Made by a program: the position numbers and the translations under genes. A model generated the notes under the pieces. It was not told the origin of the DNA and did not search any database. It saw nothing but the letters and a program-made list of their open reading frames with translations. A DNA stretch of 64,000 bases from the NCBI GenBank assembly GCA_963757745.1, contig CAVWSG010000007.1, positions 490,932 to 554,931 on the forward strand, in the 5' to 3' direction. Shown here one piece after another: positions 4,981 through 34,713 of this stretch (positions within the stretch are counted from its first letter, which is position 1; every line of letters begins with the position of its first letter). Origin of the DNA: an uncultured delta proteobacterium (lineage in GTDB: Bacteria > Myxococcota > Myxococcia > Myxococcales > Anaeromyxobacteraceae).

Positions 4981-5956
<976 letters not shown>

Positions 5957-5963
5957 CGCCGGC

Positions 5964-15653: not shown

Positions 15654-17672
15654 TCAGGCCGGGGAGGGCTCCGGCGCGCTCCGCACGTCGACCGCGGTGT
15701 CGTAGAAGGTGGCGCCCTGTCCGGCGTCGGTGAGGCGCTGCGCGGTGAGAGCATTCACGGTGCGCGAACCGGGCGCGTCGTCGAGGCGGCGCACGCCCGG
15801 CGCCACCAGCACACCCGCCGGTACGTCGTCCGTCACCTCCAGCGAGAAGGCCACCGCGCCGAGCTCGTTCCACGCCTCCACCCGCTCGCCGGGCTGGAGT
15901 CCCCGCGCGCTCGCGTCGGCGGGAGACATGCGGAGCGCCATCGGCCCGGCCCGCCGCCGGAGGTCGTCGCGCTCCTGCAGGAAGCTCGAGTTGAGGCCGT
16001 GCAGGGACGGCGCGGTCATGAGCCGGAGCGGCAGCGGGGTGCCGCTCCGCTCCACGTGGGTGGGGAGCGCGCGCGGCAGCGGCAGGAGCTCGATCTTGCT
16101 CGAGGAGGTGGCGAACCTCGCCTTCGCGCCGGCCGGGATTCGCAGCGAGACCGCGCGGCCCTCATCCAGCGCCTTGCGGTCGAGCCCTTCACGGAGGGGA
16201 GAGGGAGCGTCGAGCAGCTCGTCGACCAGATCGTCCACCGATCGGGAGAAATGAGGGTCGGCGGGGCCCATGGCCCTCGCCAGCGCGGCGAAGACCTCCC
16301 AGTTCGAGCGCGCCTCGCCGACCGGCGGGATGGCGGCGCGGACGCGCTGCACCGCGTAGCTCCCGTAGGCGCGGTAGAGGTCGGGGTGCTCCAGCGAGGA
16401 GGTGGCGGGCAGGACCACGTCGGCGTAGCGGGCGGTGTCGGTGAGGAAGCGCTCGTGCACCACCGTGAAGAGGTCGTCCCGGGCAAGGCCGGCGAGCACC
16501 GCGTTCTGGTCCGGGGTCACCGCCGCGGGGTTGGAGTGATACACGTAGAGTGACATCACCCGAGGGTCCGAGAGCTCGGTGAGCGCGTGCCCCAGCCGGT
16601 TCATGTTGACGAGGCGGGTGGGGCCGGGCTGGAGGTCGGCACGGGTGACGGCGGAGAGGTCGAAGGCGAGGCCAGAAGAGGTGCTGCAGAGCGCCCCGCC
16701 GCCGGGCACCGCCCAGGCGCCGCGGGCGGCGGGCAGGGCCAGGATGGCCCGGATGTTGGCGCTGCCGTTCCCGTAGCGCGAGAGGCCGCTCCCCACCCGG
16801 AAGAAGGGAGCGCGTGCGCGGCCGATGGCGCCTGCCAGCGCCGACAGCTCGTCCAGCGAGAGGCCGGTGGCCTGCGCCGTGTGCTCCGGCGTCCACTCGG
16901 GGAGCACCTCCTTCTCCAGGGCGTCGAAGCCGAGGACGTGGGCTTCCACGAACGCGCGGTCGACCCGGCCGTCGCGAACGAGCAGGTGGAGGAGCCCCAG
17001 GGCCAGCGCCCCGTCGGAGCCGGGCCGGGTGACGAAGGTGCGGTCCACCACCCTCGACGTCGGCGTCCGGTAGGTGTCCACCAGGAGAACCTTCACGCCT
17101 CGTGCGCGCGCCGCCTTGAGCCGGGAGACGAGGTGCAGGTGGGTGGCGACGGCGTCGAGACCCCACACCACCACGAGGTCGCTCTCGGCGAGCTCCTCCG
17201 GGTCGGGGGCGATGGTGTCGCCCATCACCGAGGCCCAGGCCGCCTCCTTGGCCGGCGAGCAGATGGTGCGCTCCAGGCGCGAGGCGCCCATCGCGTGGAA
17301 GAAGGCGTGCCCGGCGTTCCGCTGCACGAGGCCCATGGTGCCGGCGTACGAGTACGGCAGGATGGCCTCGGCTCCGTGCGCGGCGATGATCGCCTTCCAG
17401 CGCGAGGCGATGAGCCGGATGGCCTCGTCCCAGGCGACCGGCCGGAAGCGCCCCTCGCCCTTCTGCCCGTCGCGCAGGAGCGGGGTCACGAGCCGGCTGG
17501 GCGCGTGCACCGTCCGCTCGTAGTCGTTCATCTTCGGGCAGAGCGTCCCCTTCGACCACGGGTGCTCCGGATCGCCGCGCACGCTCCTCGCCCTCCCCTC
17601 CTCCACCTCCACCAGGAGGCCGCAGGTGTCGGGGCAGTCGTAGGGACAGGCGGAGCGGTGCAGGGTGGGCAT
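15654..17672 (-). CDS. Molybdopterin (bis-MGD) oxidoreductase with an N-terminal 4Fe-4S CxxCxxxC motif
   Basis: MPTLHRSACPYDCPDTCGLLVEV...; molybdopterin oxidoreductase core and a C-terminal MopB dinucleotide-binding region; 672 aa. Confidence 0.85.
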   Translation of the reverse strand: MPTLHRSACPYDCPDTCGLLVEVEEGRARSVRGDPEHPWSKGTLCPKMNDYERTVHAPSRLVTPLLRDGQKGEGRFRPVAWDEAIRLIASRWKAIIAAHGAEAILPYSYAGTMGLVQRNAGHAFFHAMGASRLERTICSPAKEAAWASVMGDTIAPDPEELAESDLVVVWGLDAVATHLHLVSRLKAARARGVKVLLVDTYRTPTSRVVDRTFVTRPGSDGALALGLLHLLVRDGRVDRAFVEAHVLGFDALEKEVLPEWTPEHTAQATGLSLDELSALAGAIGRARAPFFRVGSGLSRYGNGSANIRAILALPAARGAWAVPGGGALCSTSSGLAFDLSAVTRADLQPGPTRLVNMNRLGHALTELSDPRVMSLYVYHSNPAAVTPDQNAVLAGLARDDLFTVVHERFLTDTARYADVVLPATSSLEHPDLYRAYGSYAVQRVRAAIPPVGEARSNWEVFAALARAMGPADPHFSRSVDDLVDELLDAPSPLREGLDRKALDEGRAVSLRIPAGAKARFATSSSKIELLPLPRALPTHVERSGTPLPLRLMTAPSLHGLNSSFLQERDDLRRRAGPMALRMSPADASARGLQPGERVEAWNELGAVAFSLEVTDDVPAGVLVAPGVRRLDDAPGSRTVNALTAQRLTDAGQGATFYDTAVDVRSAPEPSPA

Positions 17673-18063
17673 GGGCCGATCTAGCCCGCGCGCCGAGGTG
17701 GAGACAACCTTCCGGGGCAGCGACCCCGGCTCGAGTGCTGATTCAGATGGGTCCCCACGCTGCCTGGGAAAGGGAGCTCCCCTCCCCGCTCCGCGGACGC
17801 TCCACCTCGCCGCGACCCTCCTCCTCACCCTCACGCCGCCACATCCTGCGGAGCTGCTCGTCCTCCTGCTCCTGGGTGTGGGGCGCAATCCTCGGCATCC
17901 AGGTGCGGCCTTCGCTCTCCATCGTATAACCTCCCCCACGTCGGTGTGAGCGGCATCGTCGACCGTGCAAGGTCGTCCCTTCAAGACCCCATAGATAGCG
18001 TAAACGCCTATTTCGTCTTTCCGCCGCATTGCGTTAGCGCGGCGCATCGCAAGCAGGAGCGCA

Positions 18064-19077
18064 ATGGCCCACGGCGTCGTCGACAGCGAGCGAGCCACCG
18101 CCCTCGTCACAGGGGCCGGGGGCTTCCTCGGCCGCACGCTCGTCAGGGCGCTCCTGGAGAGGGGCTACCGGGTGCGCGCCATGATCCGGCCGGGAGGCGA
18201 CGCGGGCGCGCTCCGACCCGTGGAGGGCGAAGCACTCGAGATCTTCCGCGGGGACGCGACCGACGCGGCCGCCCTGGATCGCGCGGTGAAGGGGTGCGCG
18301 CTCGTCTATCACCTGGCCGGCGTGCGCCGCGGCGCCCGGCGGGAGGACTTCTTCGCGGTGAACGCCGGCTCCACTCGGCTCCTGCTCGAGGCCTGCGCCG
18401 CGGCCGGAGCCGGGGGGCAGCGGTTCGTGCTGGCCGGCTCGCTCGCCGCGGCGGGGCCCTCGCGCGATGGGCGGCGCGAGGAGGACCCGGGGGAGCCCGC
18501 CGAGTGGTACGGAGAGTCGAAGGCGGAGGCGGAGCGCCTCGCCCGCTCCTTCCGGGGTTCGCTGCCCGTGAGCATCGGGCGGCCGCCCCGCATCTTCGGC
18601 CCGGGCGACCGCGAGAACCTCCTCTTCTTCCGCCTCGCCGCGCGAGGGGTGGTGCTGCGCTTCCTCGGGCCGGAGCGGCCCCTCTCCTGGATCGACGTCG
18701 ACGACTGCGCCCGCGGCTTCCTCGCGCTGGGAGAGCACCCGGCTGCAGCGGGAGAGGACTTCTTCCTCTCCTCGCCGGAGCGCACCAGCGTCACCGGCCT
18801 GCAGCGCGAGGTGGCGCGCGCGCTCCACGTGAAGACCTTCGACGTGCCGGTGCCGCCCGCGCTCCTCTCCGGGCTCTCCTGGGCGGCCGATGGGCTCTCG
18901 CGCCTCACGCACCGGAGGCTCCCGCTCAACCGCAAGCTGGCGCGGCAGATCCTCGCACCCGGGTGGACCTGCGATCCCGGCAAGGCGGAGCGCCTCCTCG
19001 GCTTCCGGACCGGGGTCGCGCTCGCCGAGTCCCTCGCCCGCTCGGCAGACTATTATCGCGGCGAAGGATGGTTGTAG
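18064..19077 (+). CDS. NAD(P)-dependent epimerase/dehydratase (extended SDR)
   Basis: LVTGAGGFLGRTLVRALLERGYRV Rossmann fold ... YGESKAEAE (YxxxK). Confidence 0.85.
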   Translation: MAHGVVDSERATALVTGAGGFLGRTLVRALLERGYRVRAMIRPGGDAGALRPVEGEALEIFRGDATDAAALDRAVKGCALVYHLAGVRRGARREDFFAVNAGSTRLLLEACAAAGAGGQRFVLAGSLAAAGPSRDGRREEDPGEPAEWYGESKAEAERLARSFRGSLPVSIGRPPRIFGPGDRENLLFFRLAARGVVLRFLGPERPLSWIDVDDCARGFLALGEHPAAAGEDFFLSSPERTSVTGLQREVARALHVKTFDVPVPPALLSGLSWAADGLSRLTHRRLPLNRKLARQILAPGWTCDPGKAERLLGFRTGVALAESLARSADYYRGEGWL

Positions 19078-19138
19078 GATTCGCCCCCCACACACCGATG
19101 CCAGGGCCACAGCCAAGAGAGCCGGACGTCACCCGCGC

Positions 19139-19816
19139 ATGAGCGATCAGAAGCGAGCCGCGTTCTTCGACGTCGAGGGGACGCTGGTCCGGACCAACAT
19201 CGTTCACGCCTTCGCCTTCTACGCGGTGAACGGGGGCGGCATCTTCGGCAGCGCCTGGCGCACCGCCCGCACGGTGATGGGGGTGCCGCTCTTCTGGGCG
19301 CTCGACAAGGTCGACCGGCGCACCTTCAACGAGCTGTTCTACCGCTCCTACCGCGGGCTCACCGAGGACCGGCTGCTGGCGCTCTCGCAGGAGCTCTTCG
19401 AGGAGGTGCTGCGCCCGGCGATCTTCCCTGGCACCCCGAAGCTGGTCGACGAGGCGCGCCGCGCTGGCTGCCGCATCGTGCTCGTCACCGGCGCCCTCGA
19501 CTTCACCGCCCGGGAGCTGGCGCGCCACCTCGGCGCCGACGACCTCATCGCCAACCGCATGCACTTCGTGAAGGGCTTCGCCACCGGCCGGGTGGTCCCG
19601 CCCATCGTCGAGGGGGCTCACAAGGCGGTCATCGTGCGCGACTACTGCGTGCGCGAGGGGCTCGCCCTCGACCGCAGCCACGCCTACTCCGACTCGTTCT
19701 CCGACTACCCCATGCTGGCGGTGGTTGGCCATCCGGCGGCCGTGAACCCCGACCTCCGCCTGCGCAGCGTGGCCCGCTCCTACGACTGGCCCATCTTCGA
19801 CACCACGGAGGGCTGA
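19139..19816 (+). CDS. HAD-IB superfamily hydrolase (phosphoserine-phosphatase-like)
   Basis: [11 protein letters not shown] (DxxGT motif I) ... VTGALDFTA ... [10 protein letters not shown]. Confidence 0.8.
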
Positions 19817-19817
19817 C

Positions 19818-21436
19818 GTGCCCCCTCGCCCCGCGCCCCGACTTTCCCGCCTCTACGATCAGTCCGAGCCGGTGGTCACCATCGACCGCGACTCTGCGCC
19901 GCGCGTCATGTTCTCCGGGGAGGACCTCCTCCTGGAAGACCTGCCGATTGGGACCAGGGTCGTCTACCCGAAACCGCCGATCGCCGGGCTCCCCAACCCT
20001 CGGGCGGCGGTGCGCTGGGCCATCAACCACCCCGAGGGGTGCGACCCGCTCCACGCGCAGCTCCGGCCGGGGATGAGGGTCACCATCGCCATCGACGACA
20101 TCTCGCTGCCGCTGCCGCCCATGCGGACGCCCGATGCGCGCAGCGGGTGCTGGAGGTGGTGCTGGAGCTCCTCGCCGACGCCGGGGTGGACGACATCCAC
20201 CTGGTCATCGCGATCTGCCTGCACCGGCGGATGACCGACGCCGAGGTGAAGCGGATGGTGGGCCCCAACATCTTCGACGCCTACTACCCCGACCGGCTCT
20301 ACAACCACGACGCCGAGGATCCCGACGGCCTCGTCACGCTGGGAACCACCGCCCACGGCGAGTCGGCGAGCTGAACCGGCGCGCTGCCGAGTCCGACCTC
20401 GTCATCTACGTCAACCTGAACCTCGTCCCCATGGACGGGGGCCACAAGTCGGTCGGCACCGGCCTGACCAATTACCGGGGCGTGAAGGCGCACCACACCC
20501 CGCACCACATTCGCAAGAGCGACTCCTACATGGATCCGGATCGCTCGGAGATGCACCGCTCGATCGACCGCATGGGCCAGCTCATCGACCGCGAGCTGAA
20601 CGTGTTTCACATCGAGACCACCATCAACAACCGCATGTTCGACGGGCCGATGGAGTTCCTCATGCGGCGCGAGGAGGCCTGGACCGAGATGGACCGGCTG
20701 AAGCTCGCCGGCCTGCGCGCCGCGCTCGCGAGGATGCCGCGCGCTGCCCGCCGCAGGATCTTCCAGGCGGTCCCGGCGGCCTACGAGGTCATCGCGGTGC
20801 ACGCCGGCCGCACCGAGGCCACCCACCGGAAGATCCTGGAGCGGAGCTGGGAGCAGTACGCCGTCGACGTCGACTTCCAGGCCGACATCGCCATCGTCGG
20901 CATCCCCTACATCTCGCCCTACAACGTGGACTCGATCTTGAACCCGCTGCTGGTGCAGGTGATGGCCTGCGGCTACCTCTTCAACCTCTACCGCGGCAAG
21001 CCCCTCATCAAGAAGGGCGGCACGCTCATCATCACGCACCCGTGCACCGACGAGTTCGACCCGGAGCAGCACCCGAGCTACATCGAGTTCTTCCACCGCC
21101 TGCTGCCCGAGACGCGCGACGCCGAGGTGCTGGAGCGGAAGTACGAGCTGGAGTTCGCCGAGAACCCGAGCTACGTGCACATGTACCGGACCGGCCACGC
21201 CTACCACGGCGCGCACCCCTTCTTCATGTGGTACTGGGGCGAGAACGGTCGCCAGCACGTCGGCCGCGATCATCGCGGTGGGCGCCGAGAACGAGCACGT
21301 GCCGCGCATGTTGGGCTGGGAGAGCGCCGAGCGCCTCTCCGACGCCATCGACATGGCCCGCGCCCGCCAGGGCCGCAGCGCGCAGGTGGCGATGTTCCAC
21401 ATCCGCCCCATCGCCCTGACCCAGAACCTCGGATGA
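19818..21436 (+). CDS. LarA-family (lactate racemase-like, DUF2088) protein; reading frame interrupted three times in this sequence
   Basis: Three segments in three frames reassemble one LarA-like protein: ...[23 protein letters not shown] | [40 protein letters not shown]...LGTTAHGE | [23 protein letters not shown]...[20 protein letters not shown] | [21 protein letters not shown]...[11 protein letters not shown]. The stop TGA overlaps the next ATG (ATGA). Confidence 0.75.
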
Positions 21437-24400
21437 GCTCTCGGTCCGACAGCCGGCCGGCGCCCGCGATGCCCGCGCCCCGAGCCGGGGCGAGCGAGCC
21501 CGGCGCAACCGTCCGGCCGCCGCTCGACGTCGCCGCCGCCCTGCGCGGAAGGAAGCTCCTCATCACCGGCGCCACCGGCTTCGTGGGCAAGGTGATGCTC
21601 TCGATGCTGCTCCACCGCTATCCCGGGGTGGGCCAGGTCTTCGTGCTGGTTCGGCCCGGCACCGGCGGCACCCCCGACGCTCGCTTCTTCGGCAAGGTGG
21701 CCGAAGGGCGTCCCTTCGACCCGGTGCGCGCCCAGCACGGCGAACGTTACGCTGCGTTCATGCGCGAGAAGTGCGTGCCGCTGGCCGGCGACGTCACCCA
21801 CCCCATGCTCGGGCTCTCCGCCGCAGATCTAGCAGCGCCTGGAGGGGCTCGCCGCGGTGGTGAACTGCGCCGGCCTCGTCGACTTCAACCCCTCGCTCGA
21901 GCTGGCGCTCAACGTGAACGTGGCGGGCGCCGCCCACGGGGCCGAGCTGGCCAAGGCCGCCGGCTCCGTCCTCATCCACGTCTCCACCGCCTTCGTGGCC
22001 GGCAACCGAAGCGGCGTGGTCTTCGAGGACGAGCCCATCGAGGGCTACTTCCCCAGGCGCGGCGACGTGGAGGGCCGGCCCTCGCAGGACGACCGCGAGG
22101 CGCGCGACCCGCGCGACTTCGACCTCGACCGGGAGATCGCCGACTGCCAGCGCGCCATCGCCCGCGTGCGGCAGGAGGTGGACGACGCCGCCGTGGTGGC
22201 CGAGCTGCGCGCCCGGGCCCAGGAGCGGCTTCGAGGCGAGGGACGCGGCCGGGGCGACGAGAAGGCGGAGCGGCTCGCGCTGGGGCGGGAGAAGCGCCTG
22301 TGGATCTCGCAGCGGCTGGTGGCGCTGGGGATGGAGCGCGCCAGGGCCTGGGGCTGGCCCAACACCTACACCTACACGAAGAGCCTGGGCGAGCAGGCCA
22401 TCGTGAGGAGCGGCGGGCGACACGTCCTGGTGCGCCCCTCCATCGTGGAGACGGCCCTGCGCTACCCCTTCCCCGGCTGGAACGAGGGGTTCACCACCAG
22501 CGCGCCGCTCGCCTTCCTGGGCCTGAAGGGCCACCGCGTCTACCCGATGGGCGAGCGGACCATCCTCGACATCGTTCCGGTCGACCTCATCGCCGCAGGC
22601 ACCCTCGCCGTCATGGCCGAGGCCATCGGCGGAGCGCCCGAGCGCGTCTACCACCTCGCCTCGGGCGACGTGAACCCCTTCTACGCGCGGCGCACCGTGG
22701 AGCTCGTGGGCCTCCACCGCCGCCGCATCTTCCTCCGCCGCGAGTCGGGCCAGAAGCTCGTGAACCAGCTCCGCGCGCGGGTGGAGCCCTACTCGGTCTC
22801 GCGCGCCCACTACCGCGCGTTCAGCACGCCGGCGCTCACCCGCCTGGCGGGCGCCGCCGCCAGGTTCCTGCGCGAGGAGGGGCGGCAGTGGGGCGCGCCG
22901 CGCCTCTCCGCGCTGGCGAGCCGCGCCGCCGACGCCGCCGACGAGGTGGAGAGCAAGCTCGCCCAGACCGAGCTGCTCTTCGACCTCTTCATGCCCTTCA
23001 TCTGGGACAACCGGTACCTCTTCCGCTGTGCCCACATGCGGGAGCTCTTCGGCCGGCTTTCCCCCGAGGACCAGGCCCGGCTCCCCTGGGATCCCCACGC
23101 CATCGACTGGCGCTCCTACTGGCTCGACGTCCACCTGCCGGGCATGGAGGAGTGGGTCTTCCCCGGGCTGGAGGAGGAGTCGAAGCGCAAGGTGCACGGC
23201 GTGCGGACCCACCGCGACCTCCTGGAGCTCTTCCAGGCCTCCTGCCAGACGCACCGGCAGCGGGTGGCGGTGCGGATGAGCGGCTCGCGCAAGGAGCGCT
23301 ACACCTTTGGTGAGCTCCGCGCGGCCGCCGAGCGGATGGCGGGCAGTCTTGCCGCGGCCGGCGTGGCGAAGGGCGACCGGGTCCTGCTGGTGAGCGAGAA
23401 CCGGCCCGAGTGGCCGGTGGCCTTCTTCGGCATCCTGATGGCCGGCGGGGTGGTGGTGCCCGTCGACGCGCAGGCCCCCGAACCGGAGGTCGAGAACCTG
23501 GCCCGCAGCTCGGGCGCGAAGGCGGCGCTCCTCTCCGACGAGGTCGAGCTGCGCCTCGAGGAGCTCGCCGCACGCTGGCAAGGTGGCGCCGGACCGCAGG
23601 TTCTCCCGCTCGCCGAGGCGCTGGCGGGAGACCCGGCGCGGGCACCCCGCGTCGCGCCCCCCGGGGCCGAGGAGGTGGCGGCGCTCCTCTACACCAGCGG
23701 CACCTCCTCGGCCCCCAAGGGCGTCCTCCTCACCCACCGCAACTTCACCAGCCTGGTGGCGAAGCTGGCGAGCCTCTTCGACGTGGGGCCGGGCGACGCC
23801 CTCCTCTCGGTGCTCCCGCTCCACCACACCTTCGAGCTCACCTGCGGCATGCTCGTGCCCTTCTCGCGCGGCGCCGAGGTGGAGTACCTCGACGAGATCA
23901 CCGTCGACACGCTGGGTGATGCCCTGGAGAGCGGCCGCATCACCGCCATGATCGGGGTGCCGGCGCTCTGGTCGCTCCTGCACCGGCGCATCACGCAAGA
24001 GCTGGCGGCGCGGCCAGCCTGGGTGGAGGGTACGGCGAAAGCGCTCATGGGCGCCCACGGCAGCCTCCGCGAGCGGCTCGGCGTGAACCTCGGCAAGCTC
24101 CTCTTCTGGCCGGTTCACCGGCGGCTGGGCGGGCGGCTCAGGCTCCTCGTCTCCGGTGGCTCGGCGCTCGACCCCGCCGTGCAGAAGGCCTTCCACGAGC
24201 TGGGCCTCGATCTCCAGGAGGGGTACGGCCTCACCGAGGCGGCGCCGGTGCTCGCCGTCGCGAACCCGCGGGAGGACGGACTCGCGGCTGGGGTGGGCCA
24301 CGCCATCCCCGGGGTCGAGCTGCGCATCGACGCGCCCGACGCGTCCGGCGTGGGCGAGGTGCTGGCCCGGGGGCCGAACGTGATGCTCGGCTACGCGCGC

Positions 24401-25936
24401 GCTGGCGCTTCTTCACCCGAGGTGGACGAGGCGCTCACCGGGGAGGTGCTCTCGGACGGCTGGCTCCGCACCGGCGACCTGGGGCGGCTCGACGCGGCCG
24501 GGCGGCTCGTCCTGTGCGGCCGCAAGAAGGACCTCATCCTCTCCGCCGACGGACACAACGTCTACCCCGACGACGTGGAGGAGCTGTACCGCTCCGAGGA
24601 TCTCCTGAAGGAGCTCTCGGTGGTGGGCCTCCGCGAGGGCGGTCCCGGGGCGGGTGGCGAGGAGGCGGGCCTGCACGAGCGCGTGGCCATGCTGGCGGTG
24701 CCCGCCTGCCGGGGAAGGGAGCGCGCCGCGGTGCACCAGCTCATCGAGGCACACGTGAGGGAGGTCTCGGCGCGCCTGCCCTTCCACCAGCGGGTGAAGG
24801 TGTGGCACCTCACCGAGGTGGAGCTGCCCCGCACCGCCACGCGCAAGGTGAAGCGCGACTTCGTGGCCACCGAGCTGGCGCGCCTGGAAGCGCTGGCCCG
24901 GCGGCCGGAGCGACCCGAGGGCGCTCGCCCCGCGGGCGGCGACGCCTGGCTCCTCGACCTGGTGGCGGAGGTCTCCCGGCGCGCCCGCGATTCGGTCCGC
25001 CTCTCCTCGAAGCTCGGAGGCGACCTCGGCTTCGACTCGCTCATGCTCACCGAGCTCGCCGCCGCGCTGGAGCAGGCCGGGGCACCCGCGACCGTCACCG
25101 AGCACCTCCAGTCGTACGACACGGTGGCGGATCTCTCGCGGGCGGTGAGCGCCTCGATGCCCCAGGTGGCGGCCCGCCACGCGGTGCAGGTCACGGACCC
25201 CGCCTCGACCGGCGGCGCCGCCCGCGCTGGCGAGGAGCGGGCCGGAGAGCTCTTGGTCCCCGAGCCGGTCGCTGCGCTCGGGCGCCGGCTCCTGGGCCTG
25301 GGCCAGCGCATCCTCTACCGCGACGTCTACGCCACCACCGTGCGAGGCAAGGGATTCATCCCGCACGACCGCAACTTCCTGGTGGTGGCGAACCACCAGA
25401 GTCACCTCGACATGGGCCTGGTGAAGGTGGCGCTGGAGGAGGAGGGCTCGAAGCTGGTGGCGCTCGCCGCGGCCGACTACTTCTTCGACACGCCGCTCAA
25501 GCGCGCCTACTTCGAGAACTTCACCAACCTCATTCCCATGGATCGGGCGGGCTCGGTGCGCCGCAGCCTGCGCGCCGCCGTCGCCGCGCTCCGGCAGGGG
25601 CAGCACCTCCTCATCTTCCCCGAGGGCACCCGCTCGCGGGGCGTGGAGATGGCCTCCTTCAAGCCCACCGCCGGCTACCTCGCCCTGCACTGCGGGGTGG
25701 ACACCCTGCCCGTCTTCCTCCGCGGCACGCACGAGGCGCTCCCGGCCGAGTCGCTCCTGCCGCGCTCGGCCAAGCTGGAGGTGATCATCGGGAGGCCCAT
25801 CTCGGTCTCGGAGCTGCGCCGGCAGACGGCGGAGCTTCCCAGGGGCGAGGCGCACAAGGAGGCGACCCGCATCATGGAGGCCGCCGTGCGCGCCCTGGGC
25901 GGTCCGGCCGGCGGCACGGCCGGAGGACTCCCGTGA
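21433..25936 (+). CDS. Multidomain lipid enzyme, ElbD-like (about 1500 aa), one frame interruption near 21833-21841. Domains in order: fatty acyl-CoA reductase (NAD-binding), AMP-dependent acyl ligase, acyl carrier protein, lysophospholipid (AGPAT) acyltransferase
   Basis: FAR: [19 protein letters not shown]...VNCAGLVDF...[13 protein letters not shown]-binding: [21 protein letters not shown]...[30 protein letters not shown]-binding: [22 protein letters not shown]: [13 protein letters not shown]...[11 protein letters not shown]. Confidence 0.85.
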
Positions 25937-26928
25937 AGCTGCTCGTCACCGGTGGCACCGGCTTTCTCGGCTCCGCGCTGGTGCCCCTGCTCGTGCAGGC
26001 CGGGCACGCCGTGCGCGTCCTCGCCCGCGGCGACTCCGAGGAGGCGCGGGCCTCCGGCGTGGAGGTGGTGAGCGCCTCGCTGGAGGACCGCCCCGCCGTG
26101 CGCGCGGCGCTCCGGGGCGTGGAGGCGGTGTTCCACCTGGCGGGCCGGGTGGCCTTCGACGCCCGCGACCCGCAGGCCCTGTACCGGCTTCACGTGGAGT
26201 GCACGCGGACCCTCCTCGAGGACGCGCACGCCGCCGGGGTGGGCCGCATGGTGATGGCCTCCACCTCGGGGACCATCGGCATCTCGCGCGAGGAGAAGGT
26301 GCACGACGAGTCGGACCGCCACCCGATCCAGGTGGTGGCGCGCTGGCCCTACTACCTCTCCAAGATCTACCAGGAGAAGACCGCGCTCCGGTTCCACCGC
26401 GACACCGGCTTTCCGGTGGTGGCGCTGAACCCCTCGCTCCTGCTCGGACCCGGCGACGCGCGCCTCTCCTCCACCGACCTCGTCTTCAAGTTCCTGGAGC
26501 GGCGCATCCCGGCCATGCCCGGGGGCGGCCTCTCCTTCGTCGACGTGCGCGACACCGCGGCGGCCTTCGCCTCCGCGCTCACCCGGGGGCGCCCCGGCGA
26601 GCGCTACCTCCTCGGCGGCGCCAACATGACCTTCGCCGACTTCTTCACCCGCCTGTCACGCCTCTCCGGCGTGCGGGCGCCCGTGCTGCGCCTCCCCTCC
26701 GGGCTCAGCGTGGCCGGGGCCGGGCTCCTCGAGCGCTTCCACACCTGGCGCGGCACCGAGCCGCCGCTCTCGGTGGAGGAGGTCGACATGGGCGAGCACT
26801 GGTTCTACATCGACAGCGGCAAGGCGCGCCGGGAGCTCGGCTTCACCTCGCGTGACCCCGGCGAGACCTTGCACGAGACGGTGAGCTGGCTCGACCGCCA
26901 CGTGCGGCAGGTGAGGAAGGACCGCTGA
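25934..26928 (+). CDS. NAD-dependent epimerase/dehydratase family protein (SDR)
   Basis: [20 protein letters not shown]...YYLSKIYQE; the GTG overlaps the upstream stop (GTGA). Confidence 0.85.
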
Positions 26929-26979
26929 ACGCGCTCGACCGGCCGTCGATGCGAAGGGCGACCTGGCTGGGACGGCGAA

Positions 26980-28266
26980 CTACGACAGGAACGCGGCGTC
27001 GATCTCGGCCACCTGCGCGGCGTCGATGGGGACGAGCTTCCCCAGAGCGCGGGAGGCGAGGAGCGCCTTGGCGCTGTACTCGGCCACCTCCAGGCGGTCG
27101 AAAGCGTTGAGGAGCGAGCTGCCGGTGACGATGACGCAGTCGTTCTCCACCAGCGCGAGCGGCCGCTCCGCGGTGAAGGCGGCGGCGGTGCCCTGCGGAT
27201 CCATGAAGGTGCAGCCGAAGGGCAGCTTCTCCACCTTCCGCAGCAGGATGTAGCTCTCGGGGATGGTGCGCGAGTCGAACGCCTCGCCGGTCACCGCGAA
27301 GGCCATGATGGCGGGCGGGTGGGCCACGATCACCGAGCGGACGTGCGGGTGGCGCGCGTAGATGGCCTCGTGCAGCACCACGGAGCGGCTCGGGAGCTTC
27401 CCCGCCTCGTGCGCGCCGCCCTCCACCCGGACGAGATCCTTCTCGGCGAGATAGCGGCGGTCGAAGCCGTAGGGCGTGATGATGAAGCCGCCTTCGGGGA
27501 GGCGCTGCGAGAAGGTGCCCTGGGTGCTGGTGAAGAGGAGCTGGTCGCAGGCGCGGCGGACGAGCTGGCACAGCTCGCGCCTGAGCGACCGCTCCTCGCT
27601 CGAGGCCGGGCGCGGCGGGAGCTCCGGCATCTGGACGTGCTGCTTGTGGCGTGAGAGGGCAATCTGCTCCTCGGAGAGGCCGCGCGGGGCGCCGATGCGC
27701 ACCGCCCCGAGCTCCAGCCGGGCGCAGAAGTCGAGCGTCTCGAAGGCCATGAAGGCGCGGAAGAGGTCCTCGCCGCCCACCACCGCCCCGTGGTTCTCGA
27801 GCAGCACCGAGTCGCACCCCCGGGCGAAGACGGCGGCGATCTTGGCGCCCAGGTCGGCGCTGCCGGGGAGGCCATAGGGCGCGAGCCCCACCTCGCCGCA
27901 GACGATGCGGGCGTTGGGGACGAGCGAGGTGTCGGGGAGCCGCCGGACGATGCTGAAGGCCACCAGCGCCGGCGGGTGAGCGTGGACGATGGCGCGGAGC
28001 TCGGGCCGGGCGGCGTAGATCTGCTGGTGAAAGGGCAGCTCCACCGACGGCTTGTGGATGCCCTCCACCGCGCCCCCCGGCCGCACCCGCATGACGTCAC
28101 GGGGGGTGAGCGAGCCCTTGTCGACGCCGCCGGGCGTGATCCACAGGTCGCCGTTCTCCTCCAGGATGGAGAGGTTCCCGCCCGAGGTGGTGGTCATGCC
28201 ATAGGCGTAGATGCGCTCCATGATCATGACGAGCTGCTCGGCGGGGTGCAGAAGGTCGAAATCCAT
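26980..28266 (-). CDS. Tandem (duplicated) class II aldolase/adducin-domain protein
   Basis: Two consecutive class II aldolase domains, each with the HxHxxH metal-ligand pattern (AIVHAHPPALVAF and SVIVAHPPAIMAF); no N-terminal extension. Confidence 0.8.
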   Translation of the reverse strand: MDFDLLHPAEQLVMIMERIYAYGMTTTSGGNLSILEENGDLWITPGGVDKGSLTPRDVMRVRPGGAVEGIHKPSVELPFHQQIYAARPELRAIVHAHPPALVAFSIVRRLPDTSLVPNARIVCGEVGLAPYGLPGSADLGAKIAAVFARGCDSVLLENHGAVVGGEDLFRAFMAFETLDFCARLELGAVRIGAPRGLSEEQIALSRHKQHVQMPELPPRPASSEERSLRRELCQLVRRACDQLLFTSTQGTFSQRLPEGGFIITPYGFDRRYLAEKDLVRVEGGAHEAGKLPSRSVVLHEAIYARHPHVRSVIVAHPPAIMAFAVTGEAFDSRTIPESYILLRKVEKLPFGCTFMDPQGTAAAFTAERPLALVENDCVIVTGSSLLNAFDRLEVAEYSAKALLASRALGKLVPIDAAQVAEIDAAFLS

Positions 28267-28320
28267 GGGCGCGGATCTAGGATCTCGCCTTCGCGGCCGC
28301 CCGCACTTCGAGAAGGCGGG

Positions 28321-29442
28321 CTACTTCCCCAGCGCGCGCACCAGCTCGTCGGTGACCCGCCGCACCAGCTCCTCCGCCTCGGGGTCGCGCCCGTCGGAGA
28401 CGCGCCCGGCGGCCACCGTGACGCCCGGCCGCCAGGAGAGGTTGTCGCAGAGCTCGCACTCCTTCAGCCCTTGCCGCGGGTCGGGGATCCCCAGGCCCTG
28501 CTTGATCTTGAGGAGATCCTGCACCTGCTTCGGCGCGATGAAGTTCGGCTCCTTGCCGAGCTGCGCGGTGACGAGCACCGTGCGGCAGTAAGCCTCCACG
28601 ATCTCCATCTTGAAGTAGGCGTCCTCCACGCCGAAGCCCCAGGCCACCACGCCGTGGTTCGCCATCAGGATGGTGTTGTGGCAGTCGGCGAGCTTCGCCA
28701 CCTCGTCGCCCATGCCCTGGGTGCCGGGCGTGAGGTAGGGCGCGATGGGCACCACCCCGCACATGACCTCCATCTCCGGGATCATGCAGGAGGGTGGCTG
28801 CACCCCCGAGACGGCGAAGCCGGTGGCGTGGGGGGGGTGGGCGTGCACGCAGGCCTTGGCCCTGGGCTGCGCCTTGTAGATGGCGAGGTGCATGAGCAGC
28901 TCGCTGGTGCGCCGCCTTCCGGGCGTCTTCTGCACGCCTTCCAGGTCCACCAGGCAGAGGTCCTCGGGCTTCATGAAGCCCTTCGAGACCAGTGTGGGGC
29001 TGCACAGCACGAGATCCTCGGCCACCCGGATGGAGATGTTGCCGCCGTTGCCGTCGACGTAGGCGCGCTGCCAGAGGCGCCGTCCGATGTCGCAGATCTC
29101 CAGCTTGTGCGCCTCGATGGCCGGCGAGCGGAAGAAGCGCTCGATCTCGCTGGGCGCCACCCTGGGGAGGGCGGGCGTGGCCGCGCTCGCAGGGGCGGCG
29201 GGCGCAGCGGAGGCCGCGGGCTTCTCGTAGGCCCCCCCGGCCGCCGGAGCGCCCACGCCGTTCGCCCTGGCTGCGGGAGCCGCGTGCGAGGGCGACAGGA
29301 CCATGGCCGCCCCGTTGCCGCGATCGCGCAGGAGGTCGCGCGCCGAGGGGGTGATGAGCGCGTCGGCGGGGATGGACTGGGCCAGGTCGGCCCCCTTGCG
29401 CAGCAGCTCTTCGACGTCGCGGGCGGAGATGACTCGTCTCAT
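28321..29442 (-). CDS. Class II aldolase (fuculose/rhamnulose-1-phosphate aldolase family) with an N-terminal ~110-aa extension that includes a candidate BMC encapsulation helix
   Basis: MRRVISARDVEELLRKGADLAQSIPADALITPSARDLLRDRG, then an Ala/Pro-rich linker, then an aldolase core (CVHAHPPHATGFAV, GVVPIAPY). Its ATG overlaps the BMC-P stop (ATGA). Confidence 0.8.
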   Translation of the reverse strand: MRRVISARDVEELLRKGADLAQSIPADALITPSARDLLRDRGNGAAMVLSPSHAAPAARANGVGAPAAGGAYEKPAASAAPAAPASAATPALPRVAPSEIERFFRSPAIEAHKLEICDIGRRLWQRAYVDGNGGNISIRVAEDLVLCSPTLVSKGFMKPEDLCLVDLEGVQKTPGRRRTSELLMHLAIYKAQPRAKACVHAHPPHATGFAVSGVQPPSCMIPEMEVMCGVVPIAPYLTPGTQGMGDEVAKLADCHNTILMANHGVVAWGFGVEDAYFKMEIVEAYCRTVLVTAQLGKEPNFIAPKQVQDLLKIKQGLGIPDPRQGLKECELCDNLSWRPGVTVAAGRVSDGRDPEAEELVRRVTDELVRALGK

Positions 29443-29738
29443 GATTTGGGCCTGTAGGTGACGTCGTCGACGATGGCCACGTCGATGGCGTCGATGGGGG
29501 TTTTCTGCGGGAAAGGCTGGGCCGCCTCGCGGCCCTCCACGAAGCCGATGGTGTCGCCCACGCCCGCGCCGAGGTCGTCGTAGACCACCAGCGAGGGCTC
29601 GCGGGAGAGGGGGGGCGGCTCCGCCCCCTGCTGCATGTGCTCGCGGTCGAATGGGCACACGAGGAAGAATCGGCCGCCGGTGAGGGCGGGCGAGGAGACG
29701 CTCAGGGTCACCCTCCCGACCACCTGCCCGAGCCTCAC
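29439..29738 (-). CDS. BMC vertex protein (BMC-P, EutN/CcmL/PduN family), copy 3
   Basis: (V)RLGQVVGRVTLSVSSPALTGGRFFLVCP...VVYDDLGAGVGDTIGFVEG...PIDAIDVAIVDDV; the GTG start overlaps the upstream BMC-P stop. Confidence 0.8.
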   Translation of the reverse strand: MRLGQVVGRVTLSVSSPALTGGRFFLVCPFDREHMQQGAEPPPLSREPSLVVYDDLGAGVGDTIGFVEGREAAQPFPQKTPIDAIDVAIVDDVTYRPKS

Positions 29739-30001
29739 GGGAGGCCTCGCTCGGGCTCGTCGACCACGCCCACGATCATGAGCCTCACCGGGCTCTTCGG
29801 GTCCTTCACCACCAGGCGCGCCCCGAGTCCGTCGGTGGAGACGATGACGCGGGAGTGCATCCCGGCGCCGTGGGGATCGATGGCCACCACCGCCGGTCCG
29901 TTGGGCGTGCCCTCGCCGTCGATGGGCTGGCAGAGGAGGAGCTTCCACCCGTCGAAGCTGGGGTGCTTGCGGGTGGCCACCACCTGGCCCTCGACGCGCA
30001 T
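29735..30001 (-). CDS. BMC vertex protein (BMC-P), copy 2
   Basis: MRVEGQVVATRKHPSFDGWKLLLCQPIDGEG...AVVAIDPHGAGMHSRVIVSTDG...VRLMIVGVVDE. It forms the C-terminal end of a long spurious ORF in the track. Confidence 0.8.
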   Translation of the reverse strand: MRVEGQVVATRKHPSFDGWKLLLCQPIDGEGTPNGPAVVAIDPHGAGMHSRVIVSTDGLGARLVVKDPKSPVRLMIVGVVDEPERGLP

Positions 30002-30012
30002 GAGCTGCACGG

Positions 30013-31518
30013 TCAGTAGATCCGAAGGTTCTCGGACATCACGCATCGACGGATGCGGGTGAAGGTGGCCGGGTTGGTGATGCCCTCCCCGGTGGGCGTG
30101 GCGATGGTGTAGGAGAGGTACCCCTCCCCACCCATGCCGAGGCCGGCCACCGACGGTCCGTTCTTCACGAAGAGCGTGGTGTCGAGCGCCCGCGCCATGG
30201 CGGTCATGCGGCTCACGTCGTGCGAGTGGATGATGGCGGTGTGGCGGAAGCCGTGCTCGGCGCGGAGCGAGCAGGCGATGCCCTCCTCCACCGACTTCAC
30301 CCGCACCACCGGGAGCACCGGCATCATCTGCTCCTCCATCACCCACAGGTCGTCGGCCGCCGTCTCGGCGAAGAGCACCTGCGTGTCGGCCGGCACCTGC
30401 GCGCCCGCCTCGCGGGCGAGGACGGTGGCGTCGCGGCCCACCAGGTCGCGGTTCACGCTGGCGTGGGAGCAGCCCGCCCCCTGCCCCTGCGGGAAGACGA
30501 AGGCGGAGCGGCTGAGCCGCTCGAGCTGCGAGGTGCCGAGTCGGAAGCCGCGCGCCCGCTCCATGGCCGCCATGAAGCGGTCGAACACCGGGGCGAGGAC
30601 GAAGATCTCCTTCTCGCCGATGCAGAGCAGGTTGTTGTCGAAGGCGGCGCCCTGCACGATCTTGCGGGCCGCCGCCTCGAGGTCGACGGTCTCGTCGACC
30701 AGCACCGGCGGGTTGCCTGGTCCGCCGCAGATGGCCCGCTTCGAGGACTGCATGGCCGCCTTCACCACGCCGGGGCCGCCGGTGATGCAGAGGAGCTTCA
30801 CGTGCTCGTTGGCGGTGAGCTCGGCAAAGCCCTCCAGGGTGGGCGCCTCGATGCAGCAGATGAGGTTCTCGATCCCCAGCTCGTGATGGATGGCCTCGTT
30901 GAAGGCGCGCACGGCCACGCTGGCGCAGCGCGCGGCGCCGGGGTGCGGGTTGAAGACGATGCCGTTCCCGCCCGCCACCATGCTCACCACGTTGCCGGCC
31001 AGCGTGGGGATGGAGTGGGTGGAGGGGGTGACCGCGCCGATGACGCCGAAGGGCGTGTGCTCCTCGAGGGTGATGCCGCCGTCGCCGGAGAGGCCGGTCG
31101 GGTGGAGGAACTCGACCCCGGGGACGTTCCGGACCACCTGCAGCTTCTCGATCTTGTGGTCGAGGCGGCCGATCTTCGTCTCCTCGAGCTCGAGGCGCCC
31201 CCACTCGGCGGCGTTGTCGTAGGTGATCTTCTTGACCAGCTCGATCACCCGCTGCCGGCCGGCGACGCCCTTCTCCCGGAGCTGCCGGAAGGCGGCGTCG
31301 GCCGCCTCGCACGCCTCGTCGACGTCGCCGAAGACGCCGTAGTGGCGCCCGCCGCTCGCCTTGGCGCACGTCCCGGCGTGCGAGCAGGTCCCGCTCGCCG
31401 CCGGCTGGGTTGGTGCCGGGGCGCGCGCGACGCCGTTCTGGCCCGCGCCGCGCCCGAGCTGACCCAGGATCTCCTGGACGATGTCTCGGACCAGGGTTTC
31501 GTCGATGGCTGTTCTCAC
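30013..31518 (-). CDS. CoA-acylating aldehyde dehydrogenase (PduP/EutE-like) with an N-terminal encapsulation peptide
   Basis: (V)RTAIDETLVRDIVQEILGQLG amphipathic helix plus linker, then an ALDH core (VIGAVTPSTHSIPTL ... ICGGPGNPPVLVDE ... catalytic Cys in CIGEKEIFV). GAGGAG lies 5 nt before the GTG. Confidence 0.9.
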   Translation of the reverse strand: MRTAIDETLVRDIVQEILGQLGRGAGQNGVARAPAPTQPAASGTCSHAGTCAKASGGRHYGVFGDVDEACEAADAAFRQLREKGVAGRQRVIELVKKITYDNAAEWGRLELEETKIGRLDHKIEKLQVVRNVPGVEFLHPTGLSGDGGITLEEHTPFGVIGAVTPSTHSIPTLAGNVVSMVAGGNGIVFNPHPGAARCASVAVRAFNEAIHHELGIENLICCIEAPTLEGFAELTANEHVKLLCITGGPGVVKAAMQSSKRAICGGPGNPPVLVDETVDLEAAARKIVQGAAFDNNLLCIGEKEIFVLAPVFDRFMAAMERARGFRLGTSQLERLSRSAFVFPQGQGAGCSHASVNRDLVGRDATVLAREAGAQVPADTQVLFAETAADDLWVMEEQMMPVLPVVRVKSVEEGIACSLRAEHGFRHTAIIHSHDVSRMTAMARALDTTLFVKNGPSVAGLGMGGEGYLSYTIATPTGEGITNPATFTRIRRCVMSENLRIY

Positions 31519-31832
31519 GGTGCTCCTCGTGCGGAGTAGATGATCTTTCCGAGCACGTCGACCTCGTCGACGATGCCGATGATGACGGCGTCGACCGGGG
31601 CGCGGTCGAAGCCCGGCGCCAGGCGAGCCGAGCTCCCCTGGCAGAACAGCACCAGCTCACCCTCGCCGGCGCCCACGCTGTCGACCGCCACCACGGTGTT
31701 GGTCCCTGGGCGGAAGCGCGAAGGGTCGACGTCGTCGACGAGCTGCGGCCGCAGGAGCAGCAGCTTGCGGCCCGACATGGCGGGGTCTTTCTTGGTCGCC
31801 ACCACCGACCCCAAGACGCGCGCCAGGAACAT
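31515..31832 (-). CDS. BMC vertex protein (BMC-P), copy 1
   Basis: MFLARVLGSVVATKKDPAMSGRKLLLLRP...VVAVDSVGAGEGELVLFCQGSSAR...AVIIGIVDEV. Confidence 0.85.
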   Translation of the reverse strand: MFLARVLGSVVATKKDPAMSGRKLLLLRPQLVDDVDPSRFRPGTNTVVAVDSVGAGEGELVLFCQGSSARLAPGFDRAPVDAVIIGIVDEVDVLGKIIYSARGAP

Positions 31833-31837
31833 GGGGG

Positions 31838-32164
31838 CTACTTTCCCTTCGGCGAGGGGGCAGCGGGCGTCTCGGGCGGCGTGGCCGACCTGGGCAGCAC
31901 CTGGCCCACGTCGTCGTGCGGGCGGGCAATGACGTGCACCGAGGCCACCTTGCCGCCCACCGCGCGCGCCGCCGCGGCGCCGGCATCGGTGGCGGCCTTC
32001 ACCGCGGCCACGTCGCCCACCACCACCGCGGTCACGAGGCCGCTGCCCACGTGCATCATCGGACCGGCGAGCTGCACGTTGGCCGCCTTCAGCATGGCGT
32101 CCGTGCCCTCCACCAGGGCCACCAGGCCCACCGTCTCCAGCATCCCGATCGCTTGAATCGCCAT
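31838..32164 (-). CDS. BMC hexamer shell protein (BMC-H, PduA/EutM-like)
   Basis: [34 protein letters not shown]...[23 protein letters not shown]...SVHVIARPH. Confidence 0.9.
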
Positions 32165-32212
32165 GTGTTCTCCCAGGGTGAAAGCTTCACGCCGTCGAAA
32201 GAGTTCCGTCCT

Positions 32213-33409: not shown

Positions 33410-33432
33410 GGTTGGGTGATCTCCCCGCGCGC

Positions 33433-33711: not shown

Positions 33712-33728
33712 TGTCGTCTATTCTCCGG

Positions 33729-33998: not shown

Positions 33999-34039
33999 CT
34001 CCACTCTCCTCACTGGTTTGTCGTTCGGACCCGGGCTCT

Positions 34040-34711: not shown

Positions 34712-34713
34712 CG

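What the first reader, a model, noticed from the sequence alone, without database searches (positions are those of the whole stretch)
18064..26928. ElbD-like four-domain lipid enzyme operon (reductase / AMP-ligase / ACP / AGPAT) with SDR, HAD and LarA-family accessory genes
The 21433-25936 gene encodes one polypeptide with a fatty acyl reductase domain, an acyl-AMP ligase, a carrier-protein domain and a 1-acyl-glycerol-3-phosphate acyltransferase domain. This domain logic is described for the myxobacterial ether-lipid biosynthesis enzyme ElbD. It is co-directional and partly translationally coupled (ATGA, GTGA overlaps) with two SDR epimerase/reductase genes, a HAD phosphatase and a DUF2088/LarA-like gene. 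A lipid-tailoring (possibly alkyl-ether lipid) pathway in an Anaeromyxobacter-like background, with this accessory gene set, is worth comparing with the known elb cluster.
Basis: partly seen in the sequence, partly recalled or inferred. Interest (0 to 1): 0.7.

Follow-up and report, generated by a model that had tools for sequence, protein, structure and literature searches.

The report
Canonical elbABCDE ether-lipid operon, frameshifted assembly
This is an ordinary copy of the myxobacterial ether-lipid operon elbABCDE, already reported as conserved in Anaeromyxobacter, and in this assembly two of its genes are broken by four single-base indels that are most likely sequencing errors.

Summary
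The five co-directional genes at 18064-26928 are real. HMMs confirm the domains: SDR, HAD, Lar_N (LarA-like), a FAR / AMP-ligase / ACP / AGPAT protein, and a second SDR. The "accessory set" is not new. It matches M. xanthus elbA-E gene for gene, and the same order occurs in A. paludicola, Corallococcus, Myxococcus and Archangium genomes. A 2025 pan-genome study already lists this cluster as the only characterised BGC conserved in Anaeromyxobacter.

The claim of one polypeptide from 21433-25936 fails as written. That span is 4504 nt, and a 1-nt insertion near 21838 shifts the frame. The public record calls only a 1359-aa ORF. elbC carries three more single-base indels. Removing all four restores full-length proteins (539 and 1500 aa) with every catalytic motif and no excess amino-acid change. 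Similar frameshifts split E1-alpha, E1-beta and PEP carboxylase elsewhere in the window, so assembly error is the likeliest cause. Recent pseudogenisation is not excluded, because four of the seven indels cluster within 1.7 kb (p about 0.002).

One lead: ElbC, called "unknown function" in the elb literature, passes the NCBIfam equivalog model for nickel-pincer LarAH14/15/16 enzymes and keeps the cofactor-binding residues.

The parts
18064..19077 (+). elbA orthologue: NAD-dependent epimerase/dehydratase-family SDR, 337 aa, intact ORF
   Evidence: Pfam Epimerase 4e-32. It is 63-66% identical to the first gene of the A. paludicola and metagenome clusters and 53-54% identical to the Myxococcus, Corallococcus and Archangium elbA positions. 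The best NCBIfam hits (HpnA, OleD-like) are below cut-off.
19139..19816 (+). elbB orthologue: HAD-IB family phosphatase, 225 aa, intact ORF
   Evidence: Pfam HAD 5e-34. NCBIfam TIGR01490 HAD-IB scores 118.9 bits against a cut-off of 98.3. It is 79-80% identical to Anaeromyxobacteraceae orthologues and about 65% identical to Myxococcaceae orthologues.
19818..21436 (+). elbC orthologue: LarA-superfamily (Lar_N / DUF2088) protein of the LarAH14/15/16 family, about 539 aa after correction. As it stands the gene is broken into four frame segments: frame 0 at 19818-20141, frame 2 at 20141-20362, frame 1 at 20371-21267, frame 2 at 21269-21436.
   Evidence: GC3 frame switches. tblastn with intact 537-aa orthologues maps residues 2-106, 107-180, 184-482 and 483-537 to the four segments. 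Pfam Lar_N 2e-31. NCBIfam NF052592 scores 841 bits against a cut-off of 740 on the corrected sequence.
20140..20142 (+). Single-base deletion in elbC relative to orthologues (GCGCG-CAG)
   Evidence: Nucleotide alignment with L001 and L002. The codons for residues 106 and 107 share nt 20141.
20363..20370 (+). Single-base deletion in elbC (8 nt where 3 codons are expected)
21267..21270 (+). Single-base insertion in elbC (CGCGATC where CGC-ATC is expected)
21433..25936 (+). elbD orthologue: FAR - acyl-AMP/CoA ligase - ACP - AGPAT multidomain enzyme, 1500 aa after removing one base. As it stands there is a frame 1 segment at 21433-21837 and then frame 2; the ORF called in the public record is 21857-25936.
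   Evidence: Pfam. All homologues are 1460-1650 aa and collinear. tblastn gives a break at 21834/21836. The corrected translation has no internal stop.
21835..21839 (+). Single-base insertion in elbD (GCGCCTGG where GCGCTGG is expected), inside the Rossmann fold of the FAR domain
   Evidence: Removing nt 21838 gives ...[22 protein letters not shown]..., which matches the homologues.
21562..22597 (+). ElbD fatty-acyl reductase domain (NAD_binding_4). TGATGFVG starts at aa 45 and YTYTK at aa 312. A weak 'Sterile' C-terminal match covers aa 514-575.
23231..24394 (+). ElbD adenylating (AMP-binding) domain. Motifs [27 protein letters not shown] and TRKVKR are present.
24947..25147 (+). ElbD carrier-protein domain with the phosphopantetheine serine in GFDSL (motif starts at aa 1199)
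25337..25717 (+). ElbD glycerolipid acyltransferase domain (PlsC/AGPAT type). HQSHLD (HX4D) starts at aa 1321 and FPEGTR at aa 1395.
25933..26928 (+). elbE orthologue: second NAD-dependent epimerase/dehydratase-family SDR, 331 aa, GTG start overlapping the elbD stop (GTGA)
   Evidence: Pfam Epimerase 2e-35. It is 67-74% identical to Anaeromyxobacteraceae ElbE and 55-59% identical to Myxococcaceae ElbE.

Best explanation
The region is the orthologue of the myxobacterial ether-lipid biosynthesis operon elbABCDE (MIBiG BGC0000871, product VEPE/AEPE/TG-1), carried by an uncultured Anaeromyxobacteraceae genome.

Inferred chemistry. These steps come from domain families and intact motifs and were not shown here. 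The ElbD adenylating domain activates a long-chain fatty acid and loads it onto the ElbD carrier domain. The N-terminal FAR domain reduces the thioester with NAD(P)H to an aldehyde or alcohol. The C-terminal AGPAT/GNPAT-like domain acylates a glycerol-phosphate or DHAP backbone. ElbE, an SDR that is genetically required in M. xanthus, and probably ElbC and ElbB complete the conversion to 1-O-alkyl glycerolipid. ElbA is dispensable in M. xanthus. The step that forms the ether bond is unknown even in M. xanthus.

The four single-base indels that break elbC and elbD in this sequence are most likely assembly errors, so the organism probably has an intact operon.
For: 1. Domains and motifs are confirmed.
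2. The published elb operon has the same five gene types in the same order (PMC9131029; PMC13012113).
3. The same five genes, in the same order and with the same ATGA-type overlaps, are intact in A. paludicola AP025592.1 and in a 691-kb metagenome contig.
4. The A-B-C-D-E order is found in 29 of 83 fetched loci. These include C. coralloides, Myxococcus sp. Y35, M. eversor, Archangium gephyra and Pyxidicoccus, at 51-66% identity per protein.
5. 542 matched stretches in the GTDB species-genome collection encode an ElbD relative.
6. [quoted passage not shown]
7. For the error reading, all four lesions are single-base indels, and removing them gives full-length ORFs with no stops.
8. Corrected ElbC differs from invariant orthologue positions no more than intact A. 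paludicola ElbC does: 9 against 12 positions, or 51 against 49 when only Myxococcaceae-type invariants are used.
9. Three more frameshifts split housekeeping genes elsewhere in the window. E1-beta is split between Transket_pyr and Transketolase_C. E1-alpha is split at E1_dh profile positions 2-82 and 89-298. PEP carboxylase is split at profile positions 1-228 and 238-919.
Against: Four of the seven detected indels lie within 1.7 kb of elbC and the 5' end of elbD. The chance of this under a uniform error rate is about 0.002, so a locus-specific cause, including real decay, is not excluded.

The public record carries the same elbD frameshift (P0001 is 1359 aa). No second assembly of this species was found; the next-best hits are 70% identical.

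I found no lipid data for Anaeromyxobacter in the searchable literature. ElbD homologues do not always predict ether lipids, as the Pontiella example shows (PMC11868695).

The M. xanthus DK1622 locus itself was not among the 80 loci returned, so orthology was tested against other Myxococcus and Corallococcus species.
Confidence: 0.75

Rival explanations
1. The operon is a genuine elb orthologue that has recently been inactivated in this organism. elbC would be truncated after about 138 aa. ElbD would be split inside the Rossmann fold of its reductase domain. The cluster would therefore be silent or decaying.
For: Four frameshifts lie within 1.7 kb, a significant cluster (p about 0.002). The published record has the same truncated ElbD. 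Anaeromyxobacter genomes are described as reduced, with extensive gene loss (PMC9131029).
Against: Frameshifts also split E1-alpha, E1-beta and PEP carboxylase, which argues for a general assembly problem. There is no excess amino-acid divergence at invariant positions and no in-frame stops after correction. All ElbD catalytic motifs are intact. GC3 stays at 0.9-1.0 in each shifted segment. All 37 other ElbC genes recovered as single full-length matches, and all listed ElbD homologues, are intact.
Confidence: 0.2
2. The cluster is intact, but in Anaeromyxobacteraceae it makes something other than membrane or signalling glycerol ether lipids. For example, it could supply free fatty alcohol for wax esters or other acyl-lipids.
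For: A WS/DGAT gene sits at 55830-57326 in the same window. ElbD-bearing Pontiella strains showed no ether lipids (PMC11868695). The biochemical steps of ElbD have not been reconstituted (PMC9131029).
Against: There is one-to-one orthology and conserved gene order with the Myxococcus cluster, whose elbD knock-outs lose alkyl and vinyl ether lipids. The AGPAT domain with intact HX4D and EGTR motifs implies a glycerol backbone acceptor.
Confidence: 0.1
3. The frame changes are programmed (recoding), so a full-length ElbD or ElbC is made by ribosomal frameshifting.
For: None beyond the existence of the shifts.
Against: Orthologues in 37 or more genomes have uninterrupted genes at the same positions. 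There are four shifts in both directions. The nucleotide alignment shows plain single-base gain or loss.
Confidence: 0.01

Closest known systems
Myxococcus xanthus elbABCDE operon (MXAN_1531-MXAN_1527; MIBiG BGC0000871, VEPE/AEPE/TG-1)
   Same: It has the same five gene families in the same order and orientation. ElbD has the same FAR-ACS-ACP-AGPAT order. Each protein is 51-66% identical to the Myxococcus, Corallococcus and Archangium orthologues.
   Different: The host is an Anaeromyxobacteraceae MAG. elbC and elbD carry four single-base indels in this assembly. No carF or AGPS gene lies in the 64-kb window, so only alkyl (plasmanyl) products can be inferred from the window.
Anaeromyxobacter paludicola AP025592.1 elb cluster (L001) and other Anaeromyxobacteraceae clusters
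   Same: The gene order and the C/D and D/E overlaps are identical, and a molybdopterin oxidoreductase lies upstream. Identity is 61-80% per protein.
   Different: Those copies are intact (ElbC 537 aa, ElbD 1582 aa).
M. xanthus MXAN_1676-1674 / eukaryotic FAR-GNPAT-AGPS route
   Same: It uses a FAR-type reductase and a GNPAT/AGPAT-type acyltransferase, plus an NAD-epimerase-family protein.
   Different: No AGPS homologue is in this cluster or window. ElbD additionally carries its own adenylation and carrier domains.
Single-histidine LarA-like nickel-pincer enzymes LarA_Sp / LarA_Bw (PDB 9Q2U, 9Q3J) and the NCBIfam LarAH14/15/16 family
   Same: ElbC matches 9Q2U at E = 1e-32 over both domains. 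It keeps the Asp, the catalytic His, the NPN-tethering Lys and the Ni-ligand His, and it has Asn near the position of the second catalytic His. It passes NF052592.
   Different: The substrate is unknown for all of these. The solved enzymes sit in carbohydrate-gene contexts (PMC12611868), whereas ElbC sits in a lipid operon. NPN use by ElbC has not been shown.
Aas-type acyl-ACP synthetase / 2-acyl-GPE acyltransferase fusions
   Same: An AMP-binding domain is fused to a PlsC-type acyltransferase. The NCBIfam PRK08633 and PRK06814 models give partial hits.
   Different: The scores are far below cut-off (204 against 1221 bits). Aas has no FAR domain and no embedded carrier domain, and its domain order differs.

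Membership tests
elb ether-lipid biosynthesis operon (elbABCDE) | ElbD with FAR - acyl-CoA/AMP ligase - ACP - AGPAT domains in that order | tested here: met
   Pfam hits at aa 44-388, 600-987, 1172-1238 and 1302-1428 of the frame-corrected protein. Catalytic motifs are present.
elb ether-lipid biosynthesis operon (elbABCDE) | Flanking genes elbA (NAD-epimerase family), elbB (HAD), elbC (unknown function) and elbE (NAD-epimerase family), co-directional and in that order | tested here: met
   compared with the published composition.
elb ether-lipid biosynthesis operon (elbABCDE) | Sequence orthology and collinearity with Myxococcaceae elb clusters | tested here: met
   The A-B-C-D-E order at 51-66% identity per protein in C. 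coralloides, Myxococcus sp. Y35, M. eversor, M. llanfair... and Archangium spp.. M. xanthus DK1622 itself was not among the 80 loci returned.
elb ether-lipid biosynthesis operon (elbABCDE) | Uninterrupted reading frames for all five genes | tested here: not met
   elbC has three single-base indels and elbD has one. These are probably assembly errors, because housekeeping genes are also split.
elb ether-lipid biosynthesis operon (elbABCDE) | elbD-dependent production of alkyl or vinyl ether glycerolipids | not testable with these tools
   This needs lipidomics and genetics. I found no Anaeromyxobacter lipid data.
LarA superfamily, LarAH14/15/16 family (for ElbC) | Lar_N domain and an equivalog-level HMM score | tested here: met
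   Pfam Lar_N 2e-31. NF052592 scores 841 bits against a cut-off of 740 for the corrected window protein, 850 bits for A. paludicola and 847 bits for Myxococcus sp. Y35.
LarA superfamily, LarAH14/15/16 family (for ElbC) | NPN-cofactor residues: Asp (ribose), catalytic His (His108 equivalent), Lys (covalent tether) and His (Ni ligand) | tested here: met
   Alignment to 9Q2U. Asp94, His136, Lys208 and His224 are invariant in 38 ElbC sequences. The residue roles are taken from PMC12611868.
LarA superfamily, canonical two-histidine racemases | Second catalytic histidine (His174 of L. plantarum LarA) | tested here: not met
   There is no His in the loop before the tethering Lys. An invariant Asn lies 9 residues upstream of the Lys. 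The loop is shorter than in LarA, so exact equivalence is uncertain.
LarA superfamily (for ElbC) | NPN biosynthesis genes larB, larC and larE in the same genome | not testable with these tools
   None were found among the window's genes. The rest of the genome was not available.
AGPS-dependent (eukaryote-like) ether-lipid route | Alkylglycerone-phosphate synthase gene next to a FAR-acyltransferase gene | tested here: not met
   No AGPS-type domain was found in the window's gene inventory.

The most novel reading that the evidence does not exclude
ElbC may be the missing chemistry of the AGPS-independent ether-lipid route. On this reading it is a nickel-pincer-nucleotide enzyme with a single catalytic histidine that does not racemise. 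Instead it would use 'hidden redox': it transiently oxidises the C2 hydroxyl of an acyl-glycerol-phosphate-type intermediate, so that the acyl group can be exchanged for the fatty alcohol made by ElbD. It then returns the hydride to the same face.

This would link two literatures that do not cite each other, one on elbC ('unknown function') and one on LarAH14/15/16 (no substrate known). It would also predict that myxobacterial ether-lipid synthesis depends on nickel and on larBCE. My evidence covers only family membership, conserved cofactor residues and operon linkage. The reaction itself is speculation.
Probability: 0.12. Interest if true: 0.7.

Novelty: already known. Interest (0 to 1): 0.15.

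Why it matters
As found, it matters little. It is another instance of a published, widely conserved operon in a clade where it has already been catalogued.

Two practical points follow. First, the assembly has about one frameshifting indel per 9 kb, so any "novel architecture" or "pseudogene" call from this contig needs a frame check. Automated annotation has already truncated ElbD to 1359 aa. Second, placing ElbC in the NPN-dependent LarAH14/15/16 family gives a concrete, testable handle on two open questions: how ElbD-type pathways form the ether bond without AGPS, and what the orphan single-histidine LarA homologues do.

Tried and rejected
1. Looking up the source contig through P0001 failed because the protein is not on record. 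Read depth and assembly method therefore could not be examined.
2. I tried to fetch the M. xanthus DK1622 locus. The genome scan returns only the best 80 of 542 matches, and M. xanthus was not among them. Other Myxococcus and Corallococcus species were used instead.
3. The sigma-70 promoter and intrinsic-terminator scan of 17500-27300 found nothing. That is uninformative in a 72% GC myxobacterial genome.
4. Programmed frameshifting was considered and rejected, because orthologues are uninterrupted and the shifts go in both directions.
5. An old pseudogene was considered and rejected, because there is no excess divergence at invariant sites.
6. A search for literature on ether lipids or plasmalogens in Anaeromyxobacter found no lipid data.
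7. A search of the LarA literature for any link to ether lipids or Myxococcus found none. The only mention is that Myxococcota have a very high prevalence of larA homologues.
8. I looked for larB, larC, larE, carF and AGPS genes in the window and found none.
9. The NCBIfam scan of ElbD gave only generic acyl-CoA ligase hits below cut-off, so there is no dedicated ElbD model.
Full report
**Observation**

The window is about 72% GC, so long spurious ORFs are common. I therefore used third-position GC periodicity to define genes. On the + strand between 18064 and 26928 there are five consecutive coding units.

- 18064-19077: NAD-dependent epimerase/dehydratase SDR.
- 19139-19816: HAD hydrolase.
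- 19818-21436: Lar_N (DUF2088).
- A large protein with NAD_binding_4 (aa 44-388, 1e-45), AMP-binding (600-987, 6e-77), PP-binding (1172-1238, 4e-9) and Acyltransferase (1302-1428, 2e-21).
- 25933-26928: a second epimerase-family SDR.

The ATGA overlap at 21433-21436 and the GTGA overlap at 25933-25936 are real.

The span 21433-25936 is 4504 nt and cannot be one ORF. The coding frame switches from frame 1 to frame 2 near 21838. A TAG at 21830 closes the downstream frame on its 5' side. The longest true ORF is 21857-25936, 1359 aa.

The LarA-like gene changes frame three times, near 20141, 20369 and 21269. tblastn with intact orthologues maps their residues contiguously across the four segments. 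A nucleotide alignment shows that each lesion is a single-base gain or loss. Undoing the four changes gives a 539-aa ElbC and a 1500-aa ElbD with no internal stops.

**Are the frameshifts biological?**

The public protein database holds a 100%-identical 1359-aa protein from a 598,878-bp contig (P0001). The deposited assembly therefore has the same elbD lesion. The next-best hits are only 70% identical, and all homologues are full length.

Three observations favour assembly error:
- Three further frameshifts elsewhere in the window split housekeeping genes. These are E1-beta near 5390, E1-alpha near 6742 and PEP carboxylase near 50865, each with consecutive Pfam profile coordinates on the two sides.
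- Corrected ElbC departs from positions invariant in 37 other ElbC sequences no more than intact A. paludicola ElbC does (9 against 12, or 51 against 49).
- All ElbD catalytic motifs are intact: [13 protein letters not shown], the adenylation motifs, the GFDSL serine, HX4D and EGTR.

One observation points the other way. Four of the seven indels fall within 1.7 kb (p about 0.002 by simulation). I cannot explain this without read data. I give recent pseudogenisation about 0.2.

**What it is**

The published M. xanthus elb operon consists of elbA (NAD-epimerase family), elbB (HAD), elbC (unknown function), elbD (FAR-ACS-ACP-AGPAT) and elbE (NAD-epimerase family) (PMC9131029; PMC13012113). The window has exactly these genes in this order.

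The same five genes, intact and with the same overlaps, occur in Anaeromyxobacter paludicola AP025592.1 and in a 691-kb soil metagenome contig. A scan of the GTDB species-genome collection found 542 matched stretches that encode an ElbD relative. Among the 83 loci held, 29 show A-B-C-D-E. These include Corallococcus coralloides, Myxococcus sp. Y35, M. eversor, Archangium gephyra and Pyxidicoccus, at 50-66% identity per protein to the window's proteins. Forty show only D-E, which agrees with the literature statement that elbB and elbC may be unlinked.

The gene at the elbC position in Myxococcus sp. Y35 and C. coralloides is also Lar_N.

[quoted passage not shown] The finding is therefore already known.

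**Mechanism**

Shown in M. xanthus by others:
- elbD is required for alkyl and vinyl ether lipids and for TG-1.
- elbE contributes.
- elbA is dispensable.
- elbB insertions are polar.
- CarF makes the vinyl ether.

Inferred from domain families and intact motifs here:
- The adenylating domain activates a fatty acid and loads it on the ACP domain.
- The FAR domain reduces it with NAD(P)H.
- The AGPAT-like domain acylates a glycerol-phosphate or DHAP backbone.
- An SDR (ElbE) may act as a ketoreductase or transient oxidase.
- The HAD-IB phosphatase may remove the phosphate for neutral ether lipids.

The ether-forming step is unknown. No carF or AGPS gene lies in the window, so from this sequence only alkyl products can be predicted.

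**A lead noticed on the way**

ElbC is not merely "DUF2088". The corrected window protein, the A. paludicola protein and the Myxococcus sp. Y35 protein all pass the NCBIfam equivalog NF052592, "NPN-dependent hydroxyacid isomerase, LarAH14/15/16 family" (841-850 bits against a cut-off of 740).

The closest solved structures are the single-histidine LarA-like nickel-pincer enzymes 9Q2U and 9Q3J (E = 1e-32 and 5e-28; PMC12611868). In 38 ElbC sequences the ribose-binding Asp, the catalytic His, the NPN-tethering Lys and the Ni-ligand His are invariant. An invariant Asn lies where the second catalytic His would be expected.

The LarA papers I could search do not mention ether lipids. They do note that larA homologues are present in 80-100% of Myxococcota. 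LarAH14 was inactive on the 2-hydroxyacids tested. That ElbC supplies hidden-redox chemistry for ether formation is my speculation (probability about 0.12), but it is testable.

**Surroundings**

- Upstream on the - strand lie a molybdopterin oxidoreductase (as in A. paludicola), a fumarase-class lyase, enolase, lipoyl synthase and a 2-oxoacid dehydrogenase complex.
- Downstream on the - strand lies a microcompartment locus with class II aldolases, an aldehyde dehydrogenase, PduL, acetate kinase and BMC/EutN shell genes. It is followed by rhamnose isomerase and a sugar kinase.
- A WS/DGAT gene lies at 55830-57326.

None of these is part of the elb operon in relatives.

**Verdict**

Novelty is "already known". 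Interest is low at 0.15, and that score rests mainly on the ElbC / nickel-pincer lead and on the warning about assembly quality.

Noticed in passing
window 4984-5980, 5967-7356 and 48890-51572 (- strand): Frameshifts split three housekeeping genes. E1-beta is split near 5390 between Transket_pyr and Transketolase_C. E1-alpha is split near 6742. PEP carboxylase is split near 50865. This indicates about one indel per 9 kb in this assembly.
   Followed up: yes
window 19818-21436; L001 6391-8004; L046 8367-9962: ElbC, described as 'unknown function' in the elb literature, passes the NCBIfam equivalog for NPN-dependent LarAH14/15/16 enzymes. It keeps the nickel-pincer cofactor residues but has only one catalytic histidine. 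Neither the elb papers nor the LarA papers I could search make this link.
   Followed up: partly
window 26980-40530: A bacterial microcompartment locus on the - strand. It has two class II aldolases, EutN (twice), an aldehyde dehydrogenase, acetate kinase, three BMC shell genes, PduL and an RnfC/Nuo51-like protein. L-rhamnose isomerase and an FGGY kinase follow, and an AraC-type regulator is transcribed divergently. It looks like a fucose/rhamnose-type (PVM-like) microcompartment.
   Followed up: partly
window 53895-57326 (+ strand): An ACAD9/VLCAD-like acyl-CoA dehydrogenase is immediately followed by a WS/DGAT wax-ester synthase / diacylglycerol acyltransferase. The latter could use fatty alcohols or make neutral (ether) triacylglycerol-type lipids. 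It lies 29 kb from elb, and no linkage was tested.
   Followed up: no
window 40468-43020: About 2.5 kb shows no codon-position GC periodicity despite normal GC content. It contains tRNA-Cys (40790-40861, - strand) and a small thioesterase-like ORF (42407-42859). The rest is unexplained.
   Followed up: no
window 20141-21838: Four of the seven detected indels cluster within 1.7 kb (p about 0.002 under a uniform model). A local coverage or polishing problem and real decay cannot be told apart without reads.
   Followed up: partly
loci L004-L083: About half of the fetched ElbD loci (40 of 83) carry only elbD-elbE, with no elbA/B/C within the held flanks. One example is L010, which has a full 10 kb upstream. 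The LarA-like gene is therefore not always linked to elbD.
   Followed up: partly
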